A stretch of 64,000 nt of DNA. Origin: Octopus vulgaris (lineage: Eukaryota). Made by a program: the position numbers and the translations under genes. The notes under the pieces were generated by a model. It saw nothing but the letters and a program-made list of their open reading frames with translations. It did not search any database and was not told where the DNA came from. Below are positions 2,780 through 63,475 of the stretch, piece by piece. The stretch covers positions 32,984,001 to 33,048,000 of the forward strand of contig OX597835.1 in NCBI GenBank assembly GCA_951406725.2, in the 5' to 3' direction. Numbering within the stretch: the stretch's first letter is position 1; the number at the start of each line of letters is the position of its first letter.

Positions 2780-3452
2780 TTATTATATAGAAGGAGCTTC
2801 TACAGGACTAGAACTGTTTCATTCAAGAGAAATCTTCAGGAAGCTAGTTAACAAGAATTGTATTGGCATGTATACATTTAGGCAGGTTTAAAGGGGTGTT
2901 GGTGGGGGACTTTTTGGGGGTAGGCATAGCGCAAAATATCATACTTGGGGGAGTGGTCAAGGAGTCAGTGTTAAATTAGATAGAAGAATAAATAAAAAAT
3001 AAAAAAATAAAAAAATATATATATATAAAAAAAGGGGGAATAGAGTTTTAGGTAAATAAGGAGATTCTCACTTATACCTATGCACATATGTATACATATA
3101 TACACACGCATACAAACATATATACATATACATACACACATACATACATACACATATATATATATACATATATATATATATACACTTACACATACATATA
3201 CATATCTACACATACACATATATGTATACATACACACACTCACATGCATACACGTATACACACATGTATATATACACACACGACCACACATACATATACA
3301 CACAGAAAAATATATATACACATACACACACATACACTCACATACACGCATACACACACAAATCCACACACACACATGCACACACAGCACACTAGTCCCT
3401 ATATACACATATATACACATACACACATATATACACACACATACATATACAT

Positions 3453-4606: not shown

Positions 4607-4838
4607 GTAATTAATCAATATAGGGTGGCAAAAAAAAAATTTTGTAGAATTCTTTTGCCACCAGCGGCCTAGTGGGAAAAAATTAAATAGTCATAAACTA
4701 TTTTTAAGTTCAACATCAACAATCAAGGAACGGCCATAATAGGCCATTCACCCACTAGAAATAACAGCCAAAAGCTTTAACCGCAAAATAACGTCAATTC
4801 CGTAAACCAGGAGAAAATTGAAAAACATTTACCATGTA

Positions 4839-4945
4839 ATTTCTTAGACGATGCACCGTTTCATCTTCTGTTTAATGGAAAACTAACCTGATTAAATTAA
4901 ATCAAGCCAATCTACCATAGGCCCTTAGATTCATCAGTAAGAAAT
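4839..4945 (-). ncRNA. Type I hammerhead ribozyme, family A
   Basis: Reverse complement of the motif at 6141-6247. Confidence 0.88.
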
Positions 4946-5336
4946 AGCCAAAACCGGAACAGATATTTTTCACGAGGCATTCTCATTGCTACCTCGTCAA
5001 TATCTGACCTAAAATTTTCAAATCGTCGCACTCGCGCCAAATTTATCGGCAGCAAATAAATATAAGCCGCCGATTCCATTACGGAATTAACCAGAAAATT
5101 CATAATTAATCAATATAGGGTGGCAAAAAAAAAAAAATTTTGTAGAATTCTTTTGCCACCAGCGGCCTAGTGGGAAAAAATTAAATAGTCATAAACTATT
5201 TTTAAGTTCAACATCAACAATCAAGGAACGGCCATAATAGGCCATTCACCCACTAGAAATAACAGCCAAAAGCTTTAACCGCAAAATAACGTCAATTCCG
5301 TAAACCAGGAGAAAATTGAAAAACATTTACCCTGTA

Positions 5337-5443
5337 ATTTCTTAGACGATGCACCGTTTCATCTTCTGTTTAATGGAAAACTAACCTGATTAAATTAAAT
5401 CAAGCCAATCTACCAAAGGCCCTTAGATTCATCAGTAAGAAAT
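5337..5443 (-). ncRNA. Type I hammerhead ribozyme, family A
   Basis: Reverse complement of the motif at 6141-6247, with one substitution inside stem II. Confidence 0.88.
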
Positions 5444-6140
5444 AGCCAAAACCGGAACAGATATTTTTCACGAGGCATTCTCATTGCTACCTCGTCAATA
5501 TCTGACCTAAAATTTTCAAATCGTCGCACTCGCGCCAAATTTATCGGCAGCAAATAAATATAAGCCGCCGATTCCATTACGGAATTAACCAGAAAATTCA
5601 TAATTAATCAATATAGGGTGGCAAAAAAAAAAATTTTGTAGAATTCTTTTGCCACCAGCGGCCTTGGTAGATTGGCTTGATTTAATTTAATCAGGTTAGT
5701 TTTCCATTAAACAGAAGATGAAACGGTGCATCGTCTAAGAAATTACAGGGTAAATGTTTTTCAATTTTCTTCTGGTTTACGGAATTGACGTTATTTTGCG
5801 GTTAAAGCTTTTGGCTGTTATTTCTAGTGGGTGAATGGCCTATTATGGCCGTTCCTTGATTGTTGATGTTGAACTTAAAAATAGTTTATGACTATTTAAT
5901 TTTTCCCACTAGGCCGCTGGTGGCAAAAGAATTCTACAAAATTTTTTTTTTTTTTTTTTTTGCCACCCTATATTGATTAATTATGAATTTTCTGGTTAAT
6001 TCCGTAATGGAATCGGCGGCTTATATTTATTTGCTGCCGATAAATTTGGCGCGAGTGCGACGATTTGAAAATTTTAGGTCAGATATTGACGAGGTAGCAA
6101 TGAGAATGCCTCGTGAAAAATATCTGTTCCGGTTTTGGCT

Positions 6141-6247
6141 ATTTCTTACTGATGAATCTAAGGGCCTATGGTAGATTGGCTTGATTTAATTTAATCAGGT
6201 TAGTTTTCCATTAAACAGAAGATGAAACGGTGCATCGTCTAAGAAAT
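6141..6247 (+). ncRNA. Type I hammerhead ribozyme, family A (long stem II)
   Basis: atttctta CTGATGA atct-(60 nt)-agat GAAA cggtgcatcg TC^ taagaaat. 8-bp stem I, intact core, near-palindromic stem III, GUC cleavage after 6239. Confidence 0.9.
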
Positions 6248-6636
6248 TACATGGTAAATGTTTTTCAATTTTCTCCTGGTTTACGGAATTGACGTTATTT
6301 TGCGGTTAAAGCTTTTGGCTGTTATTTCTAGTGGGTGAATGGCCTATTATGGCCGTTCCTTGATTGTTGATGTTGAACTTAAAAATAGTTTATGACTATT
6401 TAATTTTTTCCCACTAGGCCGCTGGTGGCAAAAGAATTCTACAAAATTTTTTTTTTTGCCACCCTATATTGATTAATTATGAATTTTCTGGTTAATTCCG
6501 TAATGGAATCGGCGGCTTATATTTATTTGCTGCCGATAAATTTGGCGCGAGTGCGACGATTTGAAAATTTTAGGTCAGATATTGACGAGGTAGCAATGAG
6601 AATGCCTCGTGAAAAATATCTGTTCCGGTTTTGGCT

Positions 6637-6743
6637 ATTTCTTACTGATGAATCTAAGGGCCTATGGTAGATTGGCTTGATTTAATTTAATCAGGTTAGT
6701 TTTCCATTAAACAGAAGATGAAACGGTGCATCGTCTAAGAAAT
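6637..6743 (+). ncRNA. Type I hammerhead ribozyme, family A
   Basis: Copy of 6141-6247. Confidence 0.9.
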
Positions 6744-7134
6744 TACAGGGTAAATGTTTTTCAATTTTCTCCTGGTTTACGGAATTGACGTTATTTTGCG
6801 GTTAAAGCTTTTGGCTGTTATTTCTAGTGGGTGAATGGCCTATTATGGCCGTTCCTTGATTGTTGATGTTGAACTTAAAAATAGTTTATGACTATTTAAT
6901 TTTTTCCCACTAGGCCGCTGGTGGCAAAAGAATTCTACAAAATTTTTTTTTTTTTGCCACCCTATATTGATTAATTATGAATTTTCTGGTTAATTCCGTA
7001 ATGGAATCGGCGGCTTATATTTATTTGCTGCCGATAAATTTGGCGCGAGTGCGACGATTTGAAAATTTTAGGTCAGATATTGACGAGGTAGCAATGAGAA
7101 TGCCTCGTGAAAAATATCTGTTCCGGTTTTGGCT

Positions 7135-7241
7135 ATTTCTTACTGATGAATCTAAGGGCCTATGGTAGATTGGCTTGATTTAATTTAATCAGGTTAGTTT
7201 TCCATTAAACAGAAGATGAAACGGTGCATCGTCTAAGAAAT
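7135..7241 (+). ncRNA. Type I hammerhead ribozyme, family A
   Basis: Copy of 6141-6247. Confidence 0.9.
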
Positions 7242-7645
7242 TACAGGGTAAATGTTTTTCAATTTTCTCCTGGTTTACGGAATTGACGTTATTTTGCGGT
7301 TAAAGCTTTTGGCTGTTATTTCTAGTGGGTGAATGGCCTATTATGGCCGTTCCTTGATTGTTGATGTTGAACTTAAAAATAGTTTATGACTATTTAATTT
7401 TTTCCCACTAGGCCGCTGGTGGCAAAAGAATTCTACAAAATTTTTTTTTTTTTTTTTTTTTTTTTTGCCACCCTATATTGATTAATTATGAATTTTCTGG
7501 TTAATTCCGTAATGGAATCGGCGGCTTATATTTATTTGCTGCCGATAAATTTGGCGCGAGTGCGACGATTTGAAAATTTTAGGTCAGATATTGACGAGGT
7601 AGCAATGAGAATGCCTCGTGAAAAATATCTGTTCCGGTTTTGGCT

Positions 7646-7752
7646 ATTTCTTACTGATGAATCTAAGGGCCTATGGTAGATTGGCTTGATTTAATTTAAT
7701 CAGGTTAGTTTTCCATTAAACAGAAGATGAAACGGTGCATCGTCTAAGAAAT
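7646..7752 (+). ncRNA. Type I hammerhead ribozyme, family A
   Basis: Copy of 6141-6247. Confidence 0.9.
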
Positions 7753-7872
7753 TACAGGGTAAATGTTTTTCAATTTTCTCCTGGTTTACGGAATTGACGT
7801 TATTTTGCGGTTAAAGCTTTTGGCTGTTATTTCTAGTGGGTAAATGGCCTATTATGGCCGTTCCTTGATTGT

Positions 7873-7920
<48 letters not shown>

Positions 7921-10370: not shown

Positions 10371-10979
10371 ATATATATATATATACACACACATATATAC
10401 GTGTGTGTGTGTGCGTACGTGTCTATGCCTGTGTGAATAGAAAAAAGGTACATTTAAGTAGGTGTATGTGTGTATGTACATCTAAATTCGTAGAGATGGA
10501 GACGAGTATGTGGGTGTGTTGTAGAACACCTATGCCTGTGAACACACACACACACACAAGCATCTATATCTTTGTGAAAATATTTTTGTGGCGAATGAAT
10601 CTGTGGTGTGTGATCATAAATCTGTTCTGGGTAAGAATCCGAGGATTACTAACGTGACAGACGCTGACAGATTCTGAATCAAGTGGGTAATATAGATCTG
10701 AAAAGATGAGAATTGAAAACGATGTATCCTTCATACCTGTTCTGTGTGTGTGTGTGTGGACACAAACATAAGTGTGTCAACAGATGTTTCACGATATGTT
10801 TATATGTGTGTGTGCGTTCGTGCGTGTACATATATTCATGTATATATATATATATTGTATAGAGGGCATTATTACACATAAATGCCTCACACTAAGAGGG
10901 ACAAAGTTATTACTACCAAAATTATACTAATCATACCTAAATGCAGTTTTTCAAAGCAAGACATTTAAAAAATGAATTT

Positions 10980-11037
10980 AGTTCTGTATCACCGTGATTT
11001 CACATTCAACTTACGTCTTATGATCCTCAGCAGAACT
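10980..11037 (-). ncRNA. Type I hammerhead ribozyme, family B variant
   Basis: Reverse complement of 11094-11151. Confidence 0.8.
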
Positions 11038-11093
11038 GATTCTGAACACATCATAAATATTTATCATTATTTATTTATGATGTGTTCAGAATC

Positions 11094-11151
11094 AGTTCTG
11101 CTGAGGATCATAAGACGTAAGTTGAATGTGAAATCACGGTGATACAGAACT
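11094..11151 (+). ncRNA. Type I hammerhead ribozyme, family B variant
   Basis: agttctg CTGAGGA tcataagac-gtaa-gttgaatgt GAAA tcac-g-gtga TA^ cagaact. Perfect 7-bp stem I. Confidence 0.82.
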
Positions 11152-11647
11152 AAATTCATTTTTTAAATGTCTTGCTTTGAAAAACTGCATTTAGGTATGA
11201 TTAGTATAATTTTGGTAGTAATGACTTTGTCCCTCTTAGTGTGAGGCATTTATGTGTAATAAAGCCCTCTATACAATATAGATATAATTAATTTGTTCAA
11301 AAGAAAAATATTATTTTCGAATTCTTTTCTTTTATGAGGTTTTCACGCTAACTACCCGATAATTTCTTGTTAAGATTCCTTATTAAGAGTTTATCCTCAA
11401 TTGTTAAACTTATATATATATATATACGTGGGTGGTTTTATGTTACAGATGTATATATTTGTGCTTTTGGATAGAGTTAGATGTATTTATAAGAATGTGT
11501 GGGCGAGTACATATAAGTTTGCATATAAATGTGCATCTGTAGGTTGGTGTGTGTTTTTGCCTAGATATGTGTATGTATATCTATACGTAGACTCTATGGA
11601 AAATGTGGATAACTGAGTACGCATATTTGCATGTGTATGCGTGTGCA

Positions 11648-12469: not shown

Positions 12470-12656
12470 CGCAGTGATAGATCGTTAGCCACTACACACA
12501 TTTTTTTCTCTCCTTGTTTTTTCTGTGTACTTTTCTGTAGAAGAGCGTAGGCTCGAAACGTAAAATAATTTTTATATTCCTGAGCGTTATACTAATACAT
12601 CTGTTTGTTTTGTATATCCCCTGTCTTCATCTTTTGTTTTTTTCGTAAACCCTCCC

Positions 12657-63205: not shown

Positions 63206-63414
63206 TATGTATATGTACACTTAGTTATAAATTGAATAGTGTTCACTTCCGGATTCTCTCACTCTGTGAAAGTTTCTAGTTCGAATCACACGTGTCTTGA
63301 GATGTACCGAAGATTTTCTATTTTGGATATATTAGGGGTACTTAAGTCTGCTCAAGACTTAGTACTTGCTTTTTCCATGGGTATGAGTAAGTATTTCACT
63401 TATATCTCACGTAT

Positions 63415-63475
63415 TTATCGCTGAAGAGGGGAAAATTCTTATGAATTAACCCCGAAATTGGGACCAATTCGGTAA
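63415..63475 (+). ncRNA. Type I hammerhead ribozyme, family E
   Basis: ttatcg CTGAAGA gggg-(18 nt)-cccc GAAA ttgg-ga-ccaa TT^ cggtaa. All three stems and both core boxes are present. Confidence 0.85.

What the first reader, a model, noticed from the sequence alone, without database searches (positions are those of the whole stretch)
10851..11411. Fold-back relative of family B shows compensatory changes in the hammerhead
Seen: stem I is AGTTCTG/CAGAACT here versus AGGCCTG/CAGGTCT in the 48-51 kb array, so both strands changed and pairing was kept. The variable core position 7 changed (CUGAGGA vs CUGAUGA), the stem III centre changed (TCAC-G-GTGA vs TCAC-T-GTGA), and stem II was extended but kept the GTAA loop. 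Inference: purifying selection on ribozyme structure between subfamilies. This is the best internal evidence that the motif is functional.
Basis: seen in the sequence. Interest (0 to 1): 0.7.

Follow-up and report, generated by a model that had tools for sequence, protein, structure and literature searches.

The report
Hammerhead retrozyme subfamily with covarying stems
This back-to-back repeat is one recent copy of a young family of small, protein-free jumping elements whose predicted self-cutting RNA keeps its base pairing through matched changes across related families; it is a known kind of element, likely pasted in by Penelope-type enzymes.

Summary
Window 10845-11413 is one head-to-head insertion of a 481-bp hammerhead repeat (B2), about 78% identical to the 48-51 kb array (B1) and itself a young genome-wide subfamily. 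Stem I has two double-sided changes; alone that is modest (1-3% by chance). Across ten lineages 49 of 50 stem I cells pair, against 62% for swapped strands, so selection on the fold is supported. Corrections: N7 is polymorphic within B2 (G21, C21, T7, A1), stem II has lost its basal pair (U-U), the long stem II is probably ancestral, and old copies decay neutrally, so selection acts on the element, not the host. The fold-back is the family's normal footprint: 71 of 100 insertions are two-armed, with arms ending at two fixed unit positions in (TA)n, as expected of a Penelope tail and two-strand priming. Arm truncations fall about 2.4-fold upstream of the predicted cut site, a hint of cleavage in vivo. 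It is a new member of the non-LTR retrozymes; cleavage, circles and the mobilising enzyme are untested. This scan found the same architecture before in other families of this genome.

The parts
10845..11059 (-). Inverted arm of the insertion: B2 unit positions 462 to 195, ending in a (TA)n run
   Evidence: L001 1276-1490
10980..11037 (-). Mirror copy of the type I hammerhead; predicted cut between 10987 and 10986
11060..11069 (.). About 10-nt filler at the head-to-head junction, not in the unit
11070..11413 (+). Direct arm: B2 unit positions 460 to 323, ending in a (TA)n run
   Evidence: L001 1501-1844
11089..11157 (+). Type I hammerhead: stem I 11094-11100/11145-11151 with distal helix 11089-11092/11154-11157, core 11101-11107 (N7 = 11105), stem II 11108-11129, GAAA 11130-11133, palindromic stem III 11133-11143; predicted cut 11144|11145
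   Evidence: weak Rfam RF00163 match, 13 bits, below gathering 34
11287..11413 (+). About 128-nt 'tail' present on one arm only (between the two fixed end points, unit 195 and 323)
48342..48997 (-). Subfamily B1 comparison locus: inverted arm ending at B1 unit 204 in (TA)n
48991..51105 (+). Subfamily B1 comparison locus: 4.4 tandem 481-bp units ending at B1 unit 326 in (TA)n

Best explanation
The locus is one head-to-head insertion of a young 481-bp, protein-free repeat subfamily (B2) whose type I hammerhead motif keeps its helices through double-sided changes across related families, and it likely works as a non-LTR retrozyme copied by a Penelope-like enzyme. Shown: subfamily status, covariation, two fixed arm ends in (TA)n, arms that run through the cut site and beyond one unit. 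Inferred: tandem copies are transcribed; the ribozyme, probably as a dimer through its palindromic stem III, cuts out 481-nt monomers, some of which are ligated into circles; a Penelope-like endonuclease nicks both strands of a (TA)n tract and the two ends prime reverse transcription at unit positions 323 and 195; the two cDNAs are joined at their truncated ends. Selection keeps the fold only in source copies that retrotranspose.
For: Subfamily: 2265 candidates, the 40 scored giving 96-100% identity, tandem period 479-481; 129 exact B2 end-plus-TA junctions. Covariation; among families with alignable flanks (B1, B1x, B2, B3, B3d, weakly B7) 29 of 30 cells pair. In 50 B2 insertions, deviations are 4/550 in the core, 5/700 in stem I, 0/400 in stem III, 61/1100 in stem II, 29/50 at N7. 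Architecture, 100 of the 129 junctions: 71 two-armed; partner arm ends at unit 194-195 in 63 of 71 and never near 323; B1 has the homologous ends 204 and 326. 51 of 100 main arms cross the cut site, 23 cross it twice; units differ by 0.23% within an insertion and 3.1% between. Circular fold z -4.1 (B2), -7.3 (B1), 30 shuffles. Truncation rate drops from 36/4735 to 10/3533 arm-nt at unit 50, the largest drop of 39 boundaries, in both arm types. A purified Penelope-like protein nicks and extends both strands and starts at two internal RNA sites that define the tail (PMC11167929).
Against: No cleavage, circle or transcript shown. The hammerhead fold is 3 kcal/mol above the MFE and stem III pairs with about 2% probability in the monomer; B2 has U-U at the base of stem II. 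Rfam scores are below threshold. Eight of nine predicted Xenopus retrozymes did not cleave in vitro (bioRxiv 2026.07.22.740005), and hammerhead cleavage was dispensable for insertion in vitro. No autonomous partner shares sequence with B1-B3 among the two young Penelope-like families examined. The tail (about 128 nt) is longer than the published 30-40 bp. Only 5 of 165 arms stop within unit 51-55; the drop was significant at boundary 50 (2dLL 9.0) but marginal at 55 (3.8), and local sequence could cause it. Stem III showed no double-sided change.
Confidence: 0.85

Rival explanations
1. Same element, but the inverted arm is made by snap-back: the first cDNA folds on itself and is copied until it jumps to, or is cut at, the TA-rich site at unit 195.
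For: Inner ends of the two arms lie within 10 nt in 29 of 71 insertions (shuffled mean 4.9, maximum 14), the window's locus among them (460/462); junctions often sit at short palindromes; unit 195 is TA-rich.
Against: In 24 of 71 the partner arm reaches over 15 nt further upstream than the main arm and cannot be its copy; single arms ending at 195 exist (L100, L101, L104, L110). Coincident ends also follow if both primers run to one RNA 5' end.
Confidence: 0.2
2. The ribozyme is a poorly active or vestigial fold; the element moves from uncleaved multimeric transcripts, and the pairing is kept for protein binding or RNA stability.
For: U-U at stem II base, weak monomer stem III; half of arms run through the cut site; cleavage dispensable in vitro for a Penelope-like element.
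Against: Core intact between B1 and B2 despite 18.5% flank divergence (P about 0.02 for core plus stem III, 0.1 for core alone); axolotl HHR_Amex2 has the same U-U and cleaves, better as a dimer (PMC7229834); truncation step at the cut site.
Confidence: 0.15
3. A DNA-level satellite or fold-back transposon in which matched changes arose by repair or template switching between the two halves of a hairpin, not by selection on RNA.
For: Stem I strands are a 7-bp inverted repeat; tandem arrays can grow by unequal exchange.
Against: G-U and U-G pairs are kept (12 or more cells in stem I), which suits RNA and not DNA repair; the single-stranded core is conserved; insertions are dispersed, 5'-truncated, with fixed 3' ends and no terminal inverted-repeat pair of equal length.
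Confidence: 0.04
4. The ribozyme copies are kept by selection on the host (co-opted RNA processing).
For: None found.
Against: 29 homology-found copies of the older B5 family deviate 8.5% in the core and 9.2% elsewhere; this locus is young (99% arms).
Confidence: 0.03

Closest known systems
Metazoan non-LTR retrozymes (Cervera and de la Pena 2020, PMC7229834: listing, passages, section 14; Li, Clavereau and Pollet 2026, bioRxiv 10.64898/2026.07.22.740005: parts 1-3 of 5, supplements closed)
   Same: Non-coding tandem units, low GC, one type I hammerhead per unit, many dispersed copies, self-paired circular fold, co-existence with Penelope-like elements; U-U at the base of helix II as in axolotl HHR_Amex2.
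   Different: 481-nt unit is longer than the 170-400 nt circles cloned (within the 51-972 bp range of Li et al.); head-to-head two-armed insertions with two fixed ends in (TA)n are not described in the passages seen ('inverted' has 0 hits in PMC7229834); no cephalopod example found.
Penelope-like elements with endonuclease (PMC8557442: passages; PMC11167929: parts 1-2 of 4)
   Same: 5' truncation, partial tandems, inverted 5'-truncated copy, tail on one end, (TA)n preference, hammerhead in the repeat, two internal start sites of reverse transcription.
   Different: No ORF; tail about 128 nt vs 30-40 bp; full-size, not minimal, hammerhead; no sequence shared with the autonomous families examined.
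LINE-1 twin priming (recalled, not from a call)
   Same: Head-to-head 5' inversion with primed outer ends and a variable inner junction.
   Different: Here the two arms overlap the same sequence and exceed one unit, which needs a circular or multimeric template, and both start points are fixed.

Membership tests
Type I hammerhead ribozyme | Core CUGANGA, GAAA, NUH in type I order with open stem I | tested here: met
   numbering recalled
Type I hammerhead ribozyme | Three helices supported by covariation | tested here: met
   Stem I 7 of 7 and stem II 3 of 4 pairs with double changes; stem III outer four pairs constant in 79 of 100 listed matches, centre 0-5 nt, no double change (counted by eye)
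Type I hammerhead ribozyme | Basal pair 10.1-11.1 of stem II | tested here: not met
   U-U in B2; the same mismatch is tolerated in HHR_Amex2, so not disqualifying
Type I hammerhead ribozyme | Rfam model score above gathering | tested here: not met
   RF00163 13 bits vs 34; B1 RF02275 16.6 vs 52; the models are built on other stem lengths
Type I hammerhead ribozyme | Site-specific self-cleavage | not testable with these tools
   Indirect hint only:
Non-LTR retrozyme | Non-coding tandem repeat, one hammerhead per unit, two or more consecutive units | tested here: met
   Family level: arrays of 2-7 or more units; this locus itself holds two sub-unit arms
Non-LTR retrozyme | Dispersed, retrotransposition-like insertions without LTRs | tested here: met
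Non-LTR retrozyme | Expressed as linear and circular monomer RNA | tested here: inconclusive
   No holder on record as RNA; contigs only
Non-autonomous Penelope-like element | Inverted 5'-truncated arm, one-sided tail, (TA)n target | tested here: met
   tail longer than published
Non-autonomous Penelope-like element | Sequence shared with the terminal repeat of an autonomous element | tested here: inconclusive
   None with the 1312-aa family or the 781-aa GIY-YIG family; only the best-scoring of 2546 and 6136 candidates were seen
Autonomous Penelope-like element | RT plus GIY-YIG ORF | tested here: not met
   No such ORF in the window locus or joined to the unit in loci scanned

The most novel reading that the evidence does not exclude
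The insertions record the ribozyme at work in the germ line: a Penelope-like enzyme primes from both nicked strands at two fixed sites 128 nt apart on a mixed pool of templates, cut linear monomers (arms stop at or before the cut site, often at the same place in both arms) and re-ligated circles (arms lap the unit), while core position N7, the fastest-changing site of the unit, tunes the balance between the two.
Probability: 0.25. Interest if true: 0.55.

Novelty: new member of a known kind. Interest (0 to 1): 0.3.

Why it matters
As a covariation case it is the expected behaviour of a hammerhead in a selfish element. Its value is as a test bed: a natural series of ribozyme variants in one genome (four N7 alleles, stem II of 12-30 nt, stem III centre of 0-5 nt) and over a hundred young insertions whose ends can test the proposed but little-shown route of animal retrozymes, mobilisation by Penelope-like enzymes from cut or circular RNA.

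Tried and rejected
Autonomous partner: a Penelope-like RT fragment beside a B2 copy (L106) led to a young 1312-aa family and a GIY-YIG search to a 479+781-aa family; neither shares sequence with B1-B3; a B3-like copy in one GIY-YIG locus (L196) lies upstream of the endonuclease match and was not followed up. Pfam names none of these ORFs. Expression: no RNA holder listed; four contig sets cover parts of the unit but cannot show strand, ends or circles. Whole-window Rfam scan listed only microsatellite-driven hits among the 150 of 244 shown. Single-strand folds of the motif were not beyond shuffles (z -1.1 to -1.4). Apparent invariance of a 9-nt stem III across families was an artefact of my patterns; freeing it showed variable centres. 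The one candidate compensated stem III (L312/L313) has no stem I and was rejected as chance. A sharp pile-up at the cut site was not found (5 of 165 arms). In one search the labels of the partner arm's two ends were swapped; one search recomputes them. B4 and B5/B6 flanks do not align with B1-B3, so their stems show fold adherence, not descent; the truncated L094 copy was left out of the alignment. Sequence look-up in earlier findings gave nothing; a paper search on N7 gave nothing used.

Full report
Observation. The stretch 10845-11413 is a 215-nt inverted repeat with a 128-nt extension on the right, set in (TA)n on both sides. Each arm holds the same type I hammerhead motif. Against the 48-51 kb array (B1), stem I has two pairs changed on both sides, N7 is G instead of U, the stem III centre is G instead of U, and stem II is 22 nt instead of 12 with the GUAA loop kept.

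What it belongs to. The variant is not a one-off relative. A search with the right arm gave 2265 candidates; the 40 scored match at 96-100% and lie in tandems of period 479-481. This subfamily (B2) differs from B1 at 18.5% of aligned positions outside the ribozyme. Patterns for the shared core found 780 and 898 places, with 0 for the reversed controls, and brought in further families with other stems. B1, B2, B3 and B8 are homologous outside the ribozyme, B7 weakly; B4 and B5/B6 are not alignable to them.

Is the covariation more than chance? For two sequences it is modest: four random substitutions keep all seven pairs in 1.1-3.2% of trials; no change in 11 core bases has P about 0.1, in core plus stem III about 0.02. 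Across families it is strong, and stem I was not constrained by my patterns beyond one base. In ten lineages 49 of 50 core-proximal cells pair, 62% for non-cognate strands, 0 of 20000 permutations reach it; with six deep families only the true matching of 720 does. On 21 rows, 86% of cells pair against 69% shuffled and 25-39% slid, covariation score 0.476 vs 0.180; two pair-count measures were not above shuffles, rows are related, and this is not R-scape. Stem III gives no covariation: with it freed, the outer four pairs are exact in 79 of 100 listed matches (308 in all), the centre is 0-5 nt, and I saw no double change (by eye).

Corrections to the reading. N7 is not a subfamily difference: in 50 B2 insertions it is G 21, C 21, T 7, A 1, while core, stem I and stem III deviate by 0.7%, 0.7% and 0; on a tree of 42 copies built without it, N7 needs 6 steps, more than any of 342 sites. 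B2 has U-U at the base of stem II, a loss of pairing, matched by the axolotl HHR_Amex2 (PMC7229834). Stem II is 21-30 nt in all homologous families except the B1 clade, so shortening in B1 is more parsimonious than extension in B2, though the root is only a midpoint. Once inserted, copies decay neutrally: 29 copies of B5 found by homology deviate 8.5% in the core, 9.2% elsewhere. Selection therefore acts on source elements.

Fold. The hammerhead fold of B2 is -9.9 kcal/mol against an MFE of -12.9 in which the core mispairs with stem III; stem III is unstable as a hairpin (+0.8) and stable as a two-copy duplex (-11.9). This predicts dimer cleavage as reported for amphibian retrozymes. The circular monomer folds better than 30 shuffles (z -4.1).

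The fold-back. I took 100 of the 129 exact B2 end-plus-TA junctions, in genome order and without regard to their 5' side. 71 have a second, inverted arm; it ends at unit 194-195 in 63, at 162-201 in 4, runs off the stretch in 2, is interrupted in 2, and never ends near 323. B1 shows the homologous pair 204/326. Inverted 5'-truncated copies, a one-sided tail and (TA)n targets are Penelope hallmarks (PMC8557442), and a purified Penelope-like protein extends both nicked strands from two internal RNA sites whose distance is the tail (PMC11167929). Main arms cross the cut site in 51 of 100 cases and twice in 23; units within an insertion differ by 0.23%, between insertions 3.1%: a circular or multimeric template. 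In 24 of 71 the partner arm reaches further than the main arm, which snap-back cannot give; in 29 of 71 the inner ends coincide within 10 nt (shuffled mean 4.9), which either snap-back or a shared RNA 5' end can give.

Hint of cleavage. First-lap truncations run at 36 per 4735 arm-nt over unit 50-99 and 10 per 3533 over the 50 nt upstream, the largest drop of 39 boundaries, 2.3-fold in main and 2.6-fold in partner arms although these start 128 nt apart. The predicted cut is 53|54. Only 5 of 165 arms stop at 51-55; one insertion (L387) has both arms starting at 54. Suggestive, open to a sequence-composition effect.

Partner. Two young Penelope-like families with intact ORFs end in (TA)n (1312 aa; 479+781 aa with GIY-YIG), so a suitable enzyme exists, but neither shares sequence with B1-B3. 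The partner is unidentified.

Comparison and verdict. It works like, and meets the testable criteria of, a metazoan non-LTR retrozyme, proposed to be a non-autonomous Penelope derivative. Paper searches found no cephalopod retrozyme and no account of twin-primed retrozyme insertions, in a library that lacks most subscription journals; supplements of the 2026 preprint could not be seen. This scan has noted the same architecture in 359-495-bp families of this genome; I had searched for twin priming in the same turn and tested it here on B2. New member of a known kind; interest 0.3.

Noticed in passing
window 4608-7876: A second head-to-head tandem element (498-bp unit, about 2.1 inverted plus 4.4 direct copies, flanked by (TA)n) with no canonical type I hammerhead hit in my scan.
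   Followed up: no
window 63414-63475 (+): Type I hammerhead of another family; relatives in L156, L200, L232 show a stem III pair changed on both sides.
   Followed up: partly
window about 2790-2846 (-): Type I hammerhead of a third family, ending in (TA)n; relatives in L183 and L215.
   Followed up: partly
window about 12530-12570 (+): Hammerhead-like half core in an abundant short repeat; may be the rearranged hammerhead that earlier notes describe.
   Followed up: no
L169:2442-6377: Young Penelope-like family with a 1310-1312-aa ORF, many near-identical copies, ending about 60 nt after the stop in (TA)n, no Pfam match and no hammerhead found.
   Followed up: partly
L251:881-4581: Young Penelope-like family with two overlapping ORFs (479 and 781 aa, zinc-finger motif before GIY-YIG), a long repetitive 3' region and a degenerate hammerhead-like motif before (TA)n.
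   Followed up: partly
G000:C1:64640500-64655000: B1 array of about 30 tandem units preceded by an inverted arm.
   Followed up: no
L219-L248: Older hammerhead family B5 has a fixed 5' start about 110 nt upstream of the ribozyme as well as a fixed 3' end.
   Followed up: partly
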